A DNA stretch of 64,000 nt, taken from assembly GCA_934246625.1 (NCBI GenBank), contig CAKQHZ010000001.1, positions 434,964-498,963 on the forward strand. The letters run 5' to 3'. Position 1 is the stretch's first letter. Each line of letters begins with the position of its first letter. Below the pieces are notes generated by a model that saw only the letters and a list, made by a program, of their open reading frames with translations, was not told the DNA's origin and made no database searches. Both the position numbers and the translations under genes were made by a program. Source of the stretch: an uncultured Alphaproteobacteria bacterium (GTDB lineage Bacteria > Pseudomonadota > Alphaproteobacteria > Rs-D84 > CACZYB01). Below are positions 56,768-63,615 of this stretch, piece after piece.

Positions 56768-58225
56768 ATGTCTGAAAAAAAATCAAATATAGGTATTGTT
56801 AAGGCTGTTGAAGGTAGTGTGGTTGTTGTTTATTTTGAAAAGAAACTTCCACCTATTTATACAAAACTTGTTTGCAATTTGGATAATGAAAAGCAAATTG
56901 TTGTGGAGGTGGAGGACCATATTGATACTCATCATATACGTGGTGTTGCAATTACTTCTACACAGGGGCTTTCTCGTGGTGATGAAATGATTGATACTGA
57001 TGGACCTTTGACTGTGCCAGTTGGAAAGGGTGTTCTTGGTCGTATGATAAATGTGATGGGGCAACCTATTGATAATCAAGGAGAGTTAAATGATATTGCT
57101 TCTTGGCGAGGAATACATAATAAACCTATTCCATTGATGGACAGAAGTGTAAAGTCAGAAATTTTTAAAACTGGGATAAAGGCGATTGACTTGCTTACAC
57201 CTTTGGAACGTGGTGGAAAGACAGGTCTTTTTGGTGGTGCAGGTTGTGGTAAAACAGTTCTTATTACCGAAATGATTAACAATATGTTTGGAAGATATGA
57301 TGGTGTTTCACTTTTTTGTGGTGTTGGTGAGCGAAGTCGTGAAGGTGAAGAACTTTATAGTGAAATGAAAGATGCTGGTGTTTTGGATAAAACAACTATG
57401 ATTTTTGGTCAAATGAATGAACCATCAGGTGTAAGATTTAGAGTGGCTCAAGCAGCACTAACTATTGCAGAATATTTTCGTGATGATTTGAAGCAAGATG
57501 TCCTTTTGATGATAGATAATATTTTCAGATTTATTCAGGCTGGGTCAGAAGTGGCTGGACTTATGGGAAGAATACCATCACGTGTTGGGTATCAATCTTC
57601 TTTGGGTCAAGATTTAGCAGCGTTGGAGGAAAGAATTGCCTCAACTCCGTCAGCGTCTATTACTTCTATACAAGCAGTATATGTGCCAGCAGATGATTTT
57701 ACAGACCCGTCCGCAGCGGAAACTTTTTCTCATTTATCTGCAACGGTTGTGTTGTCTCGAAAAATGGCATCTCAAGGATTGTATCCTGCACTTGATCCAT
57801 TGGCATCAAGTTCAAAAATGTTGTCTGCAGATGTTGTTGGTCAACGTCATTATAATGTTGCAAAAAATGTTAAAATGGTGATGGCTCAATATGAAGAATT
57901 AAAAGATATTATTGCAATGCTTGGTTATGATGAACTTTCAGATGAAGACCAAGCAACAGTTATTAAAGCAAGACAATTAGAAAGATTTTTAACTCAACCT
58001 TTTGCAACAACAAAACACTTTACTGGATTAGAAGGAAAGTTAGTTGATTTGGAACAAACTTTGGAAGGTTGTGAAAGAATCTTAAGTGGTGAATTTTTAC
58101 ACCTTAGCCCAAATGCCTTTTATATGATTGGTGATATTAGTGAGGTTAAATTGGATATGAATAAAACCGAAGAAAATAAGGTTAAAAGTGAAGAAAAAAA
58201 GATAGAAGAAAACCAAGAGGACTAA
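56768..58225 (+). CDS. atpD: ATP synthase beta subunit, first gene of an N-ATPase-type operon
   Basis: Walker [17 protein letters not shown] box. Strong SD AAGAGGAAAGAGAG before ATG 56768. The ORF track starts 9 codons upstream. Confidence 0.95.
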
Positions 58226-58228
58226 GCT

Positions 58229-58609
58229 GTGAAACTTAAAATTATTGCACCGTTGGAAATGTATGAAGTAGATGATGTTGATGTTGTCTATGCCGAAGGT
58301 ATGGAAGGCTATTTTACAATACTTCCTTTGCATGCGGACTATACAACTTCTTTGGAAACATCGGTGTTTAGATATAAAAAAGGTGGAAAAGAATTTATTT
58401 TTGCAGTTGATGGTGGTGTTCTTGTAAAAATGGGTGATGAAGTTCGTATTGCAATAAGGCATATTATAAAGGGCGATAGTCTTTTGGATTTGAAAAAACA
58501 AATGCAAAAAGAGTTTTTTGAAATTGATGATAATGAAAGAAAAACACGAACTGCTCTTGCTTCATTAGAGGGAAATATTGCAAAACTTTTGTTGGAATTA
58601 AGTGAGTAG
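58229..58609 (+). CDS. atpC: ATP synthase epsilon subunit (GTG start)
   Basis: 126 aa. Beta-sandwich plus helical hairpin pattern. Immediately follows atpD with SD AAGAGGA. Confidence 0.85.
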   Translation: MKLKIIAPLEMYEVDDVDVVYAEGMEGYFTILPLHADYTTSLETSVFRYKKGGKEFIFAVDGGVLVKMGDEVRIAIRHIIKGDSLLDLKKQMQKEFFEIDDNERKTRTALASLEGNIAKLLLELSE

Positions 58610-58617
58610 AGGTTGAT

Positions 58618-58962
58618 ATGGTAAAAGAGGGAAATATTCAAAATAAAAATAGTTCCAAAATTGATAAGGATATGGAAATTACTGTGTCAAAAAAAATTGA
58701 TAGGAAACTTCTTGCTGGTCCTAAAAAAAATTTTGTGATACGTGCATTTTCTTTGTTCGGGCTTGTTGGGTGGAGTATTGTAATACCTGCTGTGCTTTGT
58801 GCATATATTGGTATGTGGTTTGATGAAAAGTATAAATCTGCATCAATTTCATATACTTTTTATTTTATATTATTTGGACTTTTGGCTGGCTGTTATAATG
58901 CTTTTCGTTGGATAAAAAGAGAAAAAGAAAGATTGGATAAGGAGGATAGTTATTATGGATAA
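58618..58962 (+). CDS. atpQ: N-ATPase accessory membrane protein AtpQ-like (AtpZ/AtpI-like, 114 aa, 2 TM)
   Basis: Small two-helix membrane protein between atpC and atpB, as in N-ATPase operons. Confidence 0.5.
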   Translation: MVKEGNIQNKNSSKIDKDMEITVSKKIDRKLLAGPKKNFVIRAFSLFGLVGWSIVIPAVLCAYIGMWFDEKYKSASISYTFYFILFGLLAGCYNAFRWIKREKERLDKEDSYYG

Positions 58963-61170: not shown

Positions 61171-61181
61171 GGGAATATGAA

Positions 61182-62696
61182 ATGCTTACAGAAGTTATTA
61201 AAGATACTTTGAATGATTTGAATGCCGTTTCAAAAGAAACAAAGGCAAGTGTTATTTCAGAAGAAATTGGTGAAGTTATTGAAATTGTCGGTAATGTTGT
61301 AAGGGCAACTGGACTTTCTTCTGTAAAAATGGACGAGCTTGTAAAAATAAAGGATTCTATGGGTATTGTTATCAACCTTAATGAAGATAGTGTTGGTATA
61401 GTTCTTCTTGATAATGCACAAAATATAGAAGCAGGTGAAAAGGTTAAACGCACTGGAAGAATTGCTGATGTGCCAGTTGGTAAAGAATTGCTTGGTAGGG
61501 TTGTTGACCCTCTTGGTAATCCATTAGATGGTGGAAATAAAATTATTACAAAGGACAGATATAATATTGAACGTGAAGCGCATCAAATTATGGAAAGACG
61601 CGAAGTTTCAGTTCCTTTGCAAACTGGACTTAAGGCAGTTGATGCGATTATCCCAATAGGTCGTGGACAACGAGAACTTATCCTTGGGGACAGACAAACA
61701 GGTAAAACAGCATTGGCGGTTGATACTATATTGGCACAAAAAAATACAGGTGTGATTTGTGTTTATTGTGCTATTGGAAGTAGGGCTGATAGTGTCGCAA
61801 AAGTTATTGATGTTTTGAAGCAAAATGATTGTATGAAAAATACTATTGTTGTTGTTGCAAGTGGTGAAAGTTCTCCTGGGCTTTTGTATATTGCACCGTA
61901 TGCTGCAACTTCTATGGCAGAATATTTTATGGAACGTGAGGGAAAAGATGTTCTTATTATCTATGATAATTTGACTTTCCATGCACAGGCATATAGACAG
62001 CTTTCTTTGTTCCTTCGTAGGGCTCCTGGTAGAGAGGCTTATCCAGGTGATATTTTCTATGTTCATTCCAGATTGTTGGAACGTTCAACTCGATTGAGAG
62101 AAGAATTTGGCGGTGGTTCTTTGACTGCATTGCCAATATGTGAAACTTTGGCTGAAAATATTTCTGCATATATTCCAACAAACCTTATATCCATTACTGA
62201 TGGACAAATATTTTTAACAAATACTTTGTTCCAAAAGGGTATTATTCCAGCAATCAATATAGGTATTTCGGTTTCTCGTGTGGGGTCAAAGGCACAACTT
62301 CCTGCTTATAAAGCAGTGGCTGGAGATATGAAAATCTCATATTCTCAATTTGAGGAGTTAGAGGCGTTTTCAAAATTTGGAACACAGCTTGATGAAGATA
62401 CAAGAAAAACTTTGCGACGTGGTGAAAGAATTAGAGAAATTTTAAAACAACCTCAATACAAACCTCTTCGTGCATCAGAACAAATTGTGGTGATTTATGC
62501 AACAAATATTGGTGTGTTTGATGATGTGGATTTGGATAAACTTGCATTGGTGCAAGATGAACTTATTAAACGTGCCAATATAGAAATTAAAAATGTTTTA
62601 GATGATATTGATAATGGTTCAAAACTTCATGACAGCTTTAAAGAAAAAATTAAAAAATTGGCTGAAGATGTGGCAAAAAAATATATAGAGGAATAA
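61182..62696 (+). CDS. atpA: ATP synthase alpha subunit
   Basis: Walker A GDRQTGKTA, 504 aa, conserved alpha-subunit core. Confidence 0.95.
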   Translation: MLTEVIKDTLNDLNAVSKETKASVISEEIGEVIEIVGNVVRATGLSSVKMDELVKIKDSMGIVINLNEDSVGIVLLDNAQNIEAGEKVKRTGRIADVPVGKELLGRVVDPLGNPLDGGNKIITKDRYNIEREAHQIMERREVSVPLQTGLKAVDAIIPIGRGQRELILGDRQTGKTALAVDTILAQKNTGVICVYCAIGSRADSVAKVIDVLKQNDCMKNTIVVVASGESSPGLLYIAPYAATSMAEYFMEREGKDVLIIYDNLTFHAQAYRQLSLFLRRAPGREAYPGDIFYVHSRLLERSTRLREEFGGGSLTALPICETLAENISAYIPTNLISITDGQIFLTNTLFQKGIIPAINIGISVSRVGSKAQLPAYKAVAGDMKISYSQFEELEAFSKFGTQLDEDTRKTLRRGERIREILKQPQYKPLRASEQIVVIYATNIGVFDDVDLDKLALVQDELIKRANIEIKNVLDDIDNGSKLHDSFKEKIKKLAEDVAKKYIEE

Positions 62697-62697
62697 A

Positions 62698-63615
62698 ATG
62701 CAAACTCTTGAAGGACTTAAACGCAGAATTAAAACGACTACTTCTCTTAAGGATATTGTAAGTAGTATGAAAACTTTGTCTGCGGTAAGTGTGGGACAAT
62801 ATGAAAAGTCAACAAAGGCATTGGAAAATTATGTCGATGTCATTGAACAAGGTTTGCAAGTTGTTTTGAAGGATATTACTTTCCCTAATGTAAAAGAAAA
62901 GCCAATTCAAAATCAAAAGGTAATTGCAATTTTGATTGGTTCGGACCAAGGATTGGTTGGTAAGTTTAATAAGGTTATTTCTGATTATGCCTTTAGATAT
63001 TTTAGGGATAATAATATTGATAAAAAAGATATAACTCTTATTGTTGCAGGACGAAGTTTGGCACCAAAGGTTTTAAGTGAAGGTTGGAATATTGATACTT
63101 TGTTTTCTATGCCAAGTTCTGTGAAAATGATGGTTGCAGTTGCAAAAAAGATTATTTTGCGATTAAAGGATATCGCTTTTAAAGATGATAAAGATGCTTT
63201 ATTAAATTTTGCAAAAAATAACCTTAAAGTTTTGGTTTTCTTTAATAAAAAAATTGATGCAGTAAGTTTTGGGCAAAATATGTATCAGCTTTTGCCTGTG
63301 GATATAAATTATTTGAAAACAGTGAAATTAAGAAAGTGGAATACTAAGCAAATTCCAATGTATAATGCAAATAGTGCAAAGTTGTTTTCATCATTTTTAA
63401 GACAATTATTGTTTGTGAATATTTATCGAATTATTTCACAAAGTTTGTCTGCGGAACATTTTACTCGTATGATAACAATGCAAAATGCTGAAAAAAATAT
63501 TGATGAACATTTGGAAGAAATGAATCTTGAATATCAACAAAGACGTCAAACAGAAATTACAAATGAACTTTTAGATGTTGTAATTGGTGCAGAAGTTTTA
63601 AAATCCAAAAAGTAA
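62698..63615 (+). CDS. atpG: ATP synthase gamma subunit
   Basis: 305 aa. N- and C-terminal coiled-coil helices (MQTLEGLKRRIKTTTSLKDIVSSMKTLSAVS..., ...ITNELLDVVIGAEVL). Follows atpA with 1-nt spacing. Confidence 0.85.
   Translation: MQTLEGLKRRIKTTTSLKDIVSSMKTLSAVSVGQYEKSTKALENYVDVIEQGLQVVLKDITFPNVKEKPIQNQKVIAILIGSDQGLVGKFNKVISDYAFRYFRDNNIDKKDITLIVAGRSLAPKVLSEGWNIDTLFSMPSSVKMMVAVAKKIILRLKDIAFKDDKDALLNFAKNNLKVLVFFNKKIDAVSFGQNMYQLLPVDINYLKTVKLRKWNTKQIPMYNANSAKLFSSFLRQLLFVNIYRIISQSLSAEHFTRMITMQNAEKNIDEHLEEMNLEYQQRRQTEITNELLDVVIGAEVLKSKK

What the first reader, a model, noticed from the sequence alone, without database searches (positions are those of the whole stretch)
56768..63615. Complete N-ATPase-type operon (atpD-C-Q-R-B-E-F-A-G) rather than a canonical F-ATPase operon
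Gene order beta-epsilon-(two small membrane proteins)-a-c-b-alpha-gamma, with no delta gene and an extended b subunit (263 aa), is the diagnostic arrangement of N-ATPases. These form a distinct, laterally transferred branch of F-type ATPases proposed to export Na+ and are normally found alongside a canonical F1Fo. The genes are tightly packed with overlapping start and stop codons, so they are transcribed as one unit. Finding this in a reduced, AT-rich host-associated genome raises the question of whether it is accessory, for ion homeostasis, or has replaced the normal ATP synthase.
Basis: partly seen in the sequence, partly recalled or inferred. Interest (0 to 1): 0.7.

Follow-up and report, generated by a model that had tools for sequence, protein, structure and literature searches.

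The report
N-type sodium ATPase operon, gut alphaproteobacterium
The window holds a complete, working copy of the unusual "N-type" rotary ATPase, probably a sodium pump, that an uncultured small-genome gut alphaproteobacterium has inherited from its ancestors and that may be its only rotary ATPase.

Summary
Nine co-oriented genes at 56768-63615 encode beta, epsilon, AtpQ, AtpR, a, c, b, alpha and gamma.

**It is an N-ATPase.**
- Every defining N-ATPase feature that could be tested is met: atpDCQRBEFAG order, AtpQ, AtpR with two conserved membrane arginines, no separate delta gene but a delta-like C-terminus on a 263-aa b, and a c subunit with Glu in helix 1 plus ESTxxY.
- Beta, alpha and gamma group with the reference N-ATPases (pAQ7, pREB4) at 100% bootstrap, away from canonical F-type enzymes.

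**What is new is the context.**
- The operon belongs to a deep alphaproteobacterial sub-branch of N-ATPases.
- It sits at the same chromosomal position (VirB10-9-8 | operon | DUF192-RbfA) in eight related gut species, and the VirB side is also conserved in a termite-gut relative.
- Its base composition matches the rest of the chromosome.
- It is under strong purifying selection (pN/pS 0.07 over 10-11 natural strains).
- So here it is an old, vertically inherited core gene set, not a recently transferred accessory.

**Likely role and open question.** It most likely works as an ATP-driven Na+ pump that energises the membrane of an anaerobic, host-associated bacterium. I could not test whether a second (F- or A/V-type) ATPase exists elsewhere in the genome. 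None lies in the ~84 kb I could see.

The parts
56706..56734 (+). Promoter-like site TTGATA-17-TATATT, 34 nt upstream of atpD, in the divergent intergenic region shared with virB8.
   Evidence: 10 of 12 matches. The number of such sites in this AT-rich region is not above the shuffled expectation, so this is only a candidate.
56768..58225 (+). atpD, N-type F1 beta subunit (485 aa). P-loop [17 protein letters not shown] and DELSDED motifs are intact. It carries a Lys/Glu-rich C-terminal tail.
   Evidence: -: TIGR03305 721 bits against TIGR01039 621 bits.
- inside the N clade at 100% bootstrap.
- Shine-Dalgarno sequence.
- motifs.
- pN/pS 0.019.
58229..58609 (+). atpC, epsilon subunit (126 aa).
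   Evidence: NF004871, TIGR03166, PF02823; pN/pS 0.19.
58618..58962 (+). atpQ, small membrane protein of the ATPase_gene1 family (114 aa).
   Evidence: -: TIGR02230 77.6 bits, above its 46.7 cut-off.
- PF09527 56.6 bits.
- found at the same position in nearly all N-operon loci.
- pN/pS 0.18.
58955..59269 (+). atpR, the hallmark N-ATPase subunit (104 aa). It has three predicted TM segments, with Arg54 in TM2 and Arg86 in TM3. It overlaps atpQ by 8 nt and atpB by 4 nt.
   Evidence: -: PF12966 only 17.2 bits, below its 26 cut-off.
- both Arg columns conserved in more than 80% of AtpR sequences from many phyla.
- TM prediction.
- hhalign against classical AtpR gives 89% probability, E 2.3e-6, with both arginines aligned.
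- pN/pS 0.029.
59266..60033 (+). atpB, Fo/No subunit a (255 aa). The stator Arg is in LAIRLYGN, equivalent to E. coli R210.
   Evidence: alignment to E. coli a; pN/pS 0.086.
60072..60353 (+). atpE, c subunit (93 aa). It has the two-carboxylate Na+ motif: Glu in TM1 (LAEGG) and E-S-T-x-x-Y in TM2 (LESTAIY).
   Evidence: -: alignment with I. tartaricus, Fusobacterium and N-type references.
-.
- no non-synonymous difference among 11 strains.
60379..61170 (+). atpF, extended b subunit (263 aa). The N-terminal TM helix and b-type coiled coil cover residues 1 to about 137. The C-terminal region, about 106-245, is delta/OSCP-like.
   Evidence: -: PF00430 plus PF00213 (residues 121-243, E 6e-9).
- BLASTP to E. 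coli delta residues 52-151.
- PDB b chains and a delta chain.
- TIGR03321 and NF011044 as best families.
61182..62696 (+). atpA, N-type F1 alpha subunit (504 aa). P-loop GDRQTGKT and Arg finger SVSRVG are intact.
   Evidence: -: TIGR03324 705 bits.
- N clade at 100% bootstrap.
- motifs.
- pN/pS 0.025.
62698..63615 (+). atpG, gamma subunit (305 aa), the last gene of the operon. No intrinsic terminator follows. The next gene (DUF192) starts at 63680 with its own promoter-like site.
   Evidence: -: TIGR03323 236 bits against TIGR01146 114 bits.
- N clade at 100% bootstrap.
- downstream signals.

Best explanation
**What it is.** This is a complete, functional N-type (atpDCQRBEFAG) rotary ATPase operon.
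- The F1-like head (alpha3beta3, gamma, epsilon) is held by a single b subunit. Its fused delta-like C-terminus replaces a separate delta subunit.
- The membrane sector consists of subunit a and a ring of c subunits.
- AtpQ and AtpR are small membrane proteins. AtpR's two membrane arginines are proposed in the literature to pair with the two carboxylates of c during ring assembly or regulation.
- The c subunit carries the full two-carboxylate Na+ ligand set, so the enzyme is most likely Na+-coupled.

**Where it is.** The host is an uncultured, AT-rich gut alphaproteobacterium, probably anaerobic. Its relatives belong to small-genome, Rickettsiales-like gut lineages. In this lineage the operon is a vertically inherited core locus.

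**How it most likely works.** It hydrolyses ATP, made by substrate-level phosphorylation or imported, to expel Na+. This builds the membrane potential and sodium-motive force that secondary transport needs. It is plausibly the main or only rotary ATPase of the cell.

**Shown here:** identity, completeness, family membership, intact catalytic and coupling residues, vertical inheritance and purifying selection.

**Inferred:** Na+ coupling (from sequence motif), direction of operation, single transcription unit, and absence of a second ATPase.
For: - **Gene content and order:**
- **N-clade placement** of beta, alpha and gamma with pAQ7 and pREB4 at 100% bootstrap, excluding E. coli, Bacillus, Fusobacterium and the alphaproteobacterial Methylobacterium F-type.
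- **AtpR:** three TM segments and two conserved arginines.
- **b-delta fusion:**
- **c motif E...ESTxxY:** identical in its ligand positions to the experimentally Na+-coupled F. nucleatum rotor (PMC3692424). It differs from the H+-selective B. pseudomallei N-type ring, which has Met at the Thr position (PMC5376962).
- **Intact functional residues:** stator Arg, P-loops and Arg finger.
- **Core, vertically inherited locus:** synteny VirB10-9-8 | operon | DUF192-RbfA in eight related species, with the VirB side also kept in a 60% GC termite-gut relative. GC is 0.327 against 0.325 and GC3 is about 0.2, the same as housekeeping genes.
- **Purifying selection:** pN/pS 0.07 overall and 0-0.22 per gene, with no premature stop codons in 10-11 strains.
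- **Host context:** rubrerythrin and no respiratory genes in the window. Related small-genome gut alphaproteobacterial orders are reported to lack respiratory chains (Rs-D84, PMC12306168) or to carry ATP/ADP antiporters (UBA3830 and RUG11792, PMC11257099).
- **No second atp set:** none in the ~84 kb visible.
Against: - Ion specificity and direction rest on sequence and context only. The one N-type ring tested biochemically was H+-selective although Na+ had been predicted from sequence (PMC5376962).
- All 'alternate F1F0' NCBIfam scores are below the curated cut-offs, and the Pfam AtpR hit is sub-threshold. The lineage is therefore a divergent member.
- I could not determine the GTDB order of the host. 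Applying the published metabolic descriptions to it is therefore an inference.
- Most of the genome (contigs up to 715 kb exist) was not visible. ProAD names only genus T78 as N-only (PMC11738941), so a second ATPase elsewhere is quite possible.
- The single transcription unit is inferred from spacing only. The promoter and terminator scans are at chance level.
Confidence: 0.62

Rival explanations
1. Accessory second enzyme. The genome also carries a canonical F1Fo (or A/V-type) ATP synthase elsewhere, and this N-ATPase only serves Na+/ion homeostasis, as in almost all described N-ATPase hosts.
For: - Literature rule 'always the second' (PMC2881411).
- ProAD finds N-type enzymes typically together with F or A types and names only genus T78 as an exception.
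- Only about 84 kb of the genome could be inspected, while contigs of up to 715 kb exist.
Against: - Accessory N-ATPases are patchy and strain-specific, for example in Futiania. This one is syntenic across a whole clade, compositionally native and strongly constrained.
- Two rotary ATPases would be unusual in small, non-respiring genomes of the kind reported for related gut orders (PMC12306168). Its authors mention a single 'F0F1-type ATP synthase' in some Rs-D84 genomes.
Confidence: 0.33
2. Na+-driven ATP synthase. In vivo the enzyme runs in the synthesis direction, using a sodium-motive force made by another primary pump such as a decarboxylase, a Na+-pyrophosphatase or Rnf, as in Fusobacterium nucleatum.
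For: - The same two-carboxylate c motif occurs in the F. nucleatum Na+ ATP synthase (PMC3692424).
- Some Rs-D84 genomes pair the ATPase with a membrane pyrophosphatase.
- A c17 N-type ring implies a high ion-to-ATP ratio, which by general bioenergetic reasoning favours ATP synthesis at low driving force.
Against: - No primary Na+ pump is seen in the visible region.
- N-ATPases have so far been viewed as pumps. Deleting the N-ATPase in M. acetivorans did not affect ATP synthesis.
- The c-ring size of this enzyme is unknown.
Confidence: 0.2
3. Proton-coupled N-ATPase. Despite the motif, the ring binds H+ under physiological conditions, as in B. pseudomallei.
For: - The B. pseudomallei N-type c17 ring was H+-selective although Na+ had been predicted.
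- ProAD predicts about half of N-ATPases to be H+-coupled.
- Close relatives (RGIG8969, RUG13061, termite MAGs) have ESC instead of EST, so the Thr ligand is not invariant in the clade.
Against: The window's c subunit has every Na+ ligand (E, E, S, T, Y). B. pseudomallei lacks the Thr and has Met instead. The identical ligand set in F. nucleatum binds Na+ (PMC3692424).
Confidence: 0.2
4. A canonical alphaproteobacterial F-type ATP synthase with rearranged genes, or a recently acquired genomic island.
For: All subunits also exceed the generic F0F1 equivalog cut-offs, and the family as a whole is known to be laterally mobile.
Against: - Beta, alpha and gamma are separated from canonical F-type subunits, including the alphaproteobacterial Methylobacterium, at 100% bootstrap.
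- AtpQ and AtpR are present, and there is no separate delta gene or atpI.
- GC and GC3 are native and synteny is conserved in eight species plus a termite-gut relative.
Confidence: 0.02

Closest known systems
Reference N-ATPases of cyanobacteria (Synechococcus/Picosynechococcus sp. PCC 7002 plasmid pAQ7, Acaryochloris marina pREB4, and the Na+-dependent enzyme of Aphanothece halophytica)
   Same: - Same atpDCQRBEFAG order, with AtpQ and AtpR carrying two arginines.
- b with a delta-like C-terminus and no delta gene.
- c with Glu in TM1 plus ESTxxY.
- Same clade in the beta, alpha and gamma trees.
   Different: - Only 55-60% identity in alpha and beta and about 31% in gamma.
- The window's clade is a separate deep sub-branch.
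- The references are plasmid-borne second copies in respiring or photosynthetic hosts. This one is chromosomal, syntenic across species and compositionally native in a gut bacterium.
Burkholderia pseudomallei N-type ATPase (c17 ring, H+-selective; PMC5376962)
   Same: Same operon type and the same two-carboxylate arrangement in c. It also comes from a host-associated bacterium.
   Different: B. pseudomallei c has E-T-M...Y and so lacks the Thr ligand. The window has E-S-T...Y. B. pseudomallei also has a regular F-type operon.
Na+-translocating F-type ATP synthases of Fusobacterium nucleatum and Ilyobacter tartaricus
   Same: The ion-binding ligand set of the c subunit is identical to that of F. 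nucleatum (E32/E65/S66/T67/Y70) (PMC3692424). The hosts are also anaerobic and non-respiring.
   Different: They are canonical F-type enzymes: atpBEFHAGDC order, a separate delta, and no AtpQ or AtpR. They fall outside the N clade and work as ATP synthases.
N-only genomes of genus T78 (Chloroflexota; ProAD, PMC11738941)
   Same: A possible precedent for an N-ATPase being the only rotary ATPase of an anaerobic organism.
   Different: - The T78 enzyme is predicted to be H+-coupled and comes from a different phylum.
- Whether the present lineage is N-only is not established.
Mycobacterial b-delta fusion subunit (PDB 7jg5, 9vkp)
   Same: A peripheral-stalk protein that joins b and delta in one chain.
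   Different: - The mycobacterial protein is about 445 aa with a full delta and partners a second b' chain in a canonical F-type enzyme.
- The N-type b here is 263 aa and matches only delta positions of about 48-171.

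Membership tests
N-ATPase (Dibrova, Galperin & Mulkidjanian 2010) | Operon order atpD-C-Q-R-B-E-F-A-G (beta, epsilon, AtpQ, AtpR, a, c, b, alpha, gamma) | tested here: met
   The same order is seen in the reference operons pAQ7 and pREB4 and in nearly all 80 related loci.
N-ATPase (Dibrova, Galperin & Mulkidjanian 2010) | [quoted passage not shown] | tested here: met
   - Three TM segments, with Arg54 in TM2 and Arg86 in TM3.
- Both Arg columns are conserved across phyla.
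- hhalign against classical AtpR gives 89% probability and E 2.3e-6.
- Caveat: Pfam PF12966 scores 17.2 bits, below its 26-bit cut-off, and no NCBIfam model hits.
N-ATPase (Dibrova, Galperin & Mulkidjanian 2010) | AtpQ (PF09527 / TIGR02230 'gene 1') between epsilon and AtpR | tested here: met
   TIGR02230 scores 77.6 bits (cut-off 46.7) and PF09527 scores 56.6 bits (cut-off 26.6).
N-ATPase (Dibrova, Galperin & Mulkidjanian 2010) | No atpH (delta) gene; unusually long b whose C-terminus aligns with delta | tested here: met
   - No delta ORF in the operon or the window.
- b is 263 aa, with PF00430 at 7-136 and PF00213 at 121-243.
- BLASTP to E. coli delta residues 52-151 gives E 2e-4.
- There is also a PDB delta hit.
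N-ATPase (Dibrova, Galperin & Mulkidjanian 2010) | c subunit with Glu in the middle of both TM helices, usually with the ESTxxY Na+ motif | tested here: met
   TM1 reads LAEGG and TM2 reads LESTAIY in the alignment.
N-ATPase (Dibrova, Galperin & Mulkidjanian 2010) | Subunits form a branch separate from the equivalent F-type subunits | tested here: met
   NJ trees with 100 bootstraps place beta, alpha and gamma with pAQ7 and pREB4 at 100%, excluding four or five canonical F-type references. The method was distance-based only, because no maximum-likelihood software was available.
N-ATPase (Dibrova, Galperin & Mulkidjanian 2010) | Present as a second copy beside a typical F- or A-type ATPase | not testable with these tools
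   Only the window plus 10 kb on each side (about 84 kb) could be read, and it holds no other atp genes.
N-ATPase (Dibrova, Galperin & Mulkidjanian 2010) | Signs of lateral transfer (insertion into conserved neighbourhoods, plasmid location). This is typical of the family but not strictly defining. | tested here: not met
   The neighbourhood is conserved in eight species plus a termite-gut MAG, and GC and GC3 match the chromosome. This copy is vertically inherited within its clade.
NCBIfam 'alternate F1F0 ATPase' exception models (TIGR03305, 03324, 03323, 03322, 03306, 03321, 03166) | Score at or above the curated cut-off of each model | tested here: not met
   These are the best or near-best family for every subunit, but all score below cut-off:

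| Subunit | Score (bits) | Cut-off (bits) |
|---|---|---|
| beta | 721 | 752 |
| alpha | 705 | 750 |
| gamma | 236 | 282 |
| c | 111 | 131 |
| a | 194 | 302 |
| b | 157 | 225 |
| epsilon | 91 | 100 |

This reflects the divergence of the sub-branch. It also means automatic annotation would probably label the genes as plain F0F1 ATP synthase.
Canonical bacterial F1Fo ATP synthase (atpIBEFHAGDC) | Separate delta gene, atpI, order a-c-b-delta-alpha-gamma-beta-epsilon, and F-type phylogeny | tested here: not met
   There is no delta or atpI, the order differs, and the subunits fall outside the F-type clade.
Na+-coupled rotary ATPases | Full set of Na+ ligands in c (Q/E32, E65, S66, T67, Y70, I. tartaricus numbering) | tested here: met
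Na+-coupled rotary ATPases | Na+-dependent activity, or Na+ protection of the c-ring carboxylate | not testable with these tools
   This needs biochemistry.

The most novel reading that the evidence does not exclude
The N-ATPase is the only rotary ATPase of a whole lineage of non-respiring, Rickettsiales-like gut alphaproteobacteria that may be symbionts of gut protists or other partner-dependent cells. This lineage would have lost the ancestral alphaproteobacterial F1Fo ATP synthase and kept an N-type Na+ pump, fed by fermentative or imported ATP, as its sole means of energising the membrane. That would break the 'always the second enzyme' rule outside Chloroflexota. It would also provide a natural system in which an N-ATPase is essential.
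Probability: 0.45. Interest if true: 0.6.

Novelty: new member of a known kind. Interest (0 to 1): 0.42.

Why it matters
N-ATPases have been known since 2010, but their physiological role is still largely inferred. They have been treated as laterally acquired second enzymes for salt or acid stress.

Here an N-ATPase behaves like a core housekeeping locus. It is clade-wide, syntenic, compositionally native and strongly constrained. Its host is a widespread uncultured gut alphaproteobacterium found in a Hadza human-gut assembly, with relatives in rumen, deer and termite guts.

If genome-wide scans show that it is the only rotary ATPase, this lineage would show that an N-type enzyme can be the primary membrane energiser. 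It would also become the obvious place to study what AtpQ and AtpR do.

There is a practical point as well. All 'alternate F1F0' models score below their cut-offs, so these operons are probably labelled as ordinary F0F1 ATP synthase in public annotation and in metabolic reconstructions of gut MAGs.

Tried and rejected
- **Second ATPase in the genome.**
  - I looked for a second atp gene set in the window by tblastn and in the 10-kb flanks. None was found, but this covers only about 84 kb.
The relatives' other contigs could therefore not be scanned.
  - I considered walking along the 715-kb contig with the search for homologous proteins plus look-up of encoding contigs. I rejected this because three steps would add only about 30 kb.
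  - I also considered querying the protein database with a canonical beta or delta. I rejected this because hits cannot be tied to this organism.
- **Supplements and unavailable papers.** The ProAD supplement and the mSphere supplement held no per-lineage ATPase tables. The 2023 Enterousia paper is not held.
- **Lineage assignment.**
  - Ca. Enterousia (Rs-D84) is unlikely. It has 39-44% GC against the window's 32%, and no Enterousia-titled genome appears among the best 80 loci.
  - UBA3830, RUG11792 or another Rickettsiales-like order remain candidates. None could be tested, because the window holds no rRNA.
- **Promoter and terminator scans** were at chance level, so they do not establish the transcription unit.
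- **Public names** for the exact proteins: none are recorded.
- **Solved structures.** A PDB sequence search with AtpQ and AtpR found no homologue.
- **Compositional artefact** as the cause of the deep branch was rejected. Subclade members range from 31% to 61% GC.
- **First plasmid listing.** The 'spread' listing was uninformative and was repeated with 'best'.

Full report
**Observation**

They are beta (56768-58225), epsilon (58229-58609), a 114-aa protein (58618-62), a 104-aa protein (58955-59269), a (59266-60033), c (60072-60353), a 263-aa b (60379-61170), alpha (61182-62696) and gamma (62698-63615).

A good Shine-Dalgarno sequence (AGGAAAGAGAG) precedes the ATG at 56768. Independent gene calls on other contigs give the same 485-aa beta.

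Intergenic distances are 3, 8, -8, -4, 38, 25, 11 and 1 nt. The genes are therefore tightly packed, but only atpQ/atpR and atpR/atpB overlap. The window contains no other atp-like gene.

**Family assignment**

Against NCBIfam, the best or near-best model for every subunit is the 'alternate F1F0 ATPase' series. Examples are beta TIGR03305 at 721 bits against generic atpD at 621, alpha TIGR03324 at 705 bits, and gamma TIGR03323 at 236 bits against 114. All of these scores fall below the curated cut-offs.

The 114-aa protein is AtpQ. It scores 77.6 bits on TIGR02230 (above cut-off) and also hits PF09527. The 104-aa protein matches Pfam AtpR only weakly, at 17.2 bits and E 0.007. The b subunit combines PF00430 with a C-terminal OSCP/delta match at residues 121-243.

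**Defining features from the literature**

Dibrova et al. 2010 (PMC2881411) define N-ATPases by these features:
- the atpDCQRBEFAG order
- AtpR, with three TM segments and two conserved arginines
- AtpQ
- no atpH but a long b with a delta-like C-terminus
- c subunits with Glu in both helices, usually with ESTxxY
- separate branching from F-type subunits
- occurrence as a second copy beside an F- or A-type enzyme

I tested each feature.

*Gene order.* The order is shared with the reference operons on pAQ7 of PCC 7002 and pREB4 of A. marina, which I fetched. It is also shared with almost all of the 80 related loci from many phyla.

*AtpR.*
- An alignment of the ORFs lying between atpQ and atpB shows two Arg columns conserved in more than 80% of sequences. 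The window's Arg54 (FLLRFF) and Arg86 (FVFIRY) occupy those columns.
- Hydropathy analysis gives three TM segments, with the arginines in TM2 and TM3.
- A profile-profile comparison of the gut-clade AtpR with classical AtpR proteins gives 89% probability and E 2.3e-6 over 90 columns, with both arginines aligned.

*b-delta fusion.* Residues 124-220 align to E. coli delta residues 52-151. PDB searches hit b chains with the N-terminal 137 residues and a delta chain with residues 106-231.

*c subunit.* It has Glu in TM1 at the position of I. tartaricus Gln32, and E-S-T-A-I-Y in TM2.

**Phylogeny**

I extracted subunits from the fetched loci and added canonical F-type references:
- E. coli K-12
- Methylobacterium, an alphaproteobacterium with the atpHAGDC order
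- Fusobacterium
- Bacillus
- a cyanobacterial F-type beta lying next to an N operon

Neighbour-joining trees with 100 bootstraps place the window's beta, alpha and gamma with pAQ7 and pREB4 at 100% support, to the exclusion of every canonical reference.

Within the N clade, the window belongs to a distinct deep sub-branch:
- nine gut species form a group at 100% support
- the termite-gut 'Rickettsiales bacterium' MAGs join them
- Alphaproteobacteria MAGs from sulfidic or hydrothermal sites join next (support: beta 100, alpha 98, gamma 87)
- this sub-branch is sister to all classical N-ATPases

This placement is not a base-composition artefact, because members of the sub-branch range from 31% to 61% GC. 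The divergence explains the sub-threshold NCBIfam scores: alpha and beta are 55-60% identical to the cyanobacterial references and 45-56% identical to F-type subunits.

**Is it functional?**

All key residues are intact:
- beta P-loop [17 protein letters not shown] and DELSDED
- alpha P-loop GDRQTGKT and the SVSRVG arginine finger
- the stator Arg of subunit a (LAIRLYGN)

I recovered the operon from ten further strain-level contigs. Nei-Gojobori counts over all pairs give pN/pS of 0.074 for the operon as a whole. Per gene the values are beta 0.02, alpha 0.03, AtpR 0.03, a 0.09, gamma 0.10, AtpQ 0.18, epsilon 0.19, b 0.22 and c 0. No strain has a premature stop codon. All nine genes, including atpQ and atpR, are therefore maintained by selection in natural populations.

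**Host and history**

The window is ordinary chromosome. It contains VirB4, MucR/Ros, LpxC, RuvC, DnaN, trigger factor, EF-Ts, S2, IleRS, GidA, PBP1, FolD, GrpE, IF-2, NusA, ClpP, rubrerythrin, RseP, BamA, LpxD, FabZ, LptF/G, and VirB11, VirB10, VirB9 and VirB8.

- The exact operon lies on many ENA, Logan and NCBI metagenome contigs. One is a 714,895-bp contig of a Hadza human-gut assembly, as judged from the record name. The exact c subunit is indexed in 213 blocks of the collection. The window's own strain sits on a 648-kb contig.
- The nearest species representatives have 80-86% identical alpha subunits. They are uncultured Alphaproteobacteria from rumen, deer rectum and other animal samples.
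- In all eight with sufficient flanks, the arrangement VirB10-9-8 | operon | DUF192-RbfA is conserved. The VirB side is also conserved in a termite-gut MAG of 60% GC.
- Operon GC (0.327) and GC3 (about 0.2) equal those of the rest of the window.

In this lineage the operon is therefore old and vertically inherited. This contrasts with the patchy, strain-specific, often plasmid-borne pattern described for the family.

**Lineage**

I could not fix the GTDB order.
- Ca. Enterousia (Rs-D84) has 39-44% GC, and no Enterousia-titled genome appears among the related loci. It is therefore unlikely.
- UBA3830 is described as coming 'from termites and ruminants'. Both UBA3830 and RUG11792 are small, low-GC, putative protist endosymbionts with Rickettsia-like ATP/ADP antiporters (PMC11257099). 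They fit the sources of the relatives.
- The Rickettsiales family UBA4311 is another candidate.

For Rs-D84, Begmatov et al. 2025 report no TCA cycle and no respiratory chain. They also report an 'F0F1-type ATP synthase' plus a membrane pyrophosphatase in some genomes (PMC12306168). Applying any of this to the window's organism is an inference.

**Mechanism**

The c subunit's ligand set is the two-carboxylate motif shown experimentally to bind Na+ in F. nucleatum (PMC3692424). The only N-type ring tested, from B. pseudomallei, is c17 and H+-selective, but it has Met where the window has the Thr ligand. I therefore favour Na+ coupling, at about 0.7. Some close relatives have ESC instead of EST, which is a caveat.

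The evidence for an anaerobic, host-associated organism is:
- rubrerythrin in the window
- no respiratory genes in the ~84 kb seen
- non-respiring or ATP-importing relatives described in the literature

In such an organism the most economical role is ATP-driven Na+ extrusion, which builds the membrane potential and sodium-motive force. The rivals remain open:
- operation as a Na+-driven ATP synthase fed by another pump
- H+ coupling
- the classical accessory role beside a canonical enzyme elsewhere in the genome

**What is known and what is new**

N-ATPases are well described. ProAD counted 1,807 in GTDB v202, and they occur in Alphaproteobacteria. The operon itself is therefore a new member of a known kind.

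The less expected aspects are:
- its status as a clade-wide, vertically inherited core locus in small-genome gut alphaproteobacteria
- its membership of a deep alphaproteobacterial sub-branch that curated N-ATPase models miss
- the possibility that it is the sole rotary ATPase, which so far has been named only for Chloroflexota genus T78

That last point is decisive for the level of interest, and it could not be tested with the tools available.

Noticed in passing
window 198-2633 (-), about 2643-2936 (-), 50923-51888 (+), 52259-56604 (-): A type IV secretion system is split into separate clusters, as in Rickettsiales. VirB3 and VirB4 lie at the left end. VirB11 (+ strand) and VirB10-VirB9-VirB8 (- strand) lie immediately upstream of atpD and are transcribed divergently from it. 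The VirB8-10 | N-ATPase adjacency is conserved in eight related species and in a termite-gut MAG.
   Followed up: partly
L012 and L013 compared with the window and L003-L011: The termite-gut 'Rickettsiales bacterium' MAGs that share the N-ATPase sub-branch are about 60% GC. L012 also shares the VirB synteny. The mammalian-gut clade is 31-35% GC. This is a very large compositional shift within one syntenic lineage.
   Followed up: partly
c subunits of L006, L009, L012 and L013 (alignment): Several relatives have E-S-C-x-x-Y instead of E-S-T-x-x-Y in the c subunit. One canonical Na+ ligand (Thr) is replaced by Cys. Ion specificity may therefore differ within the clade.
   Followed up: no
L088 (Ciceribacter plasmid NZ_CP059897.1) and similar Rhizobium, Azospirillum and Sphingobium plasmid hits: These plasmid-borne operons have the order beta-eps-Q-a-c-b-alpha-gamma and about 51% beta identity. 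They branch outside both the classical N clade and the gut sub-branch but still away from F-type. My ORF filter found no AtpR-sized ORF of at least 60 aa in the 290-nt gap between Q and a.
   Followed up: partly
L031 (Rickettsiaceae bacterium 4572_127) and several cyanobacterial loci (L017, L020, L032, L033): The N-operons are interrupted by inserted DNA. In L031, for example, b is at 447, alpha at 2693 and gamma at 7500. This is reminiscent of the gene insertions reported in cyanobacterial N-operons.
   Followed up: no
window 32768-33352 (-): A rubrerythrin gene, which is typical of anaerobes or microaerophiles. It is the only redox-related gene seen in the window.
   Followed up: no
window 33759-35114 and 35115-36452 (+): Two adjacent ORFs of 451 and 445 aa have no Pfam match even at E 0.01. 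Several other ORFs of 217-293 aa (40942-41778, 43434-44147, 44255-44908, 47062-47850, 47904-48749, 49907-50788) also have none.
   Followed up: no
window 3408-3824 (-); L002 13572-13814: A MucR/Ros regulator lies next to the VirB3-VirB4 cluster, and GapR lies downstream of the operon. Both are typical alphaproteobacterial proteins, which supports the class assignment.
   Followed up: no
window 58150-58225, 59970-60033 and 61130-61170: Beta, a and b end in short Lys/Glu/Asp-rich tails beyond the conserved cores, for example beta ...[21 protein letters not shown]. They may be low-complexity extensions typical of AT-rich genomes.
   Followed up: no
L099-L102, the 10 kb to the left of the window: parA-parB-rsmG(gidB) lie about 13-18 kb beyond the window's left end. 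gidA (16591-18432) and dnaN (7239-8357) are inside the window, and cumulative GC skew rises across the whole window. The region may lie near the replication origin, with the ATPase operon co-oriented with replication.
   Followed up: no
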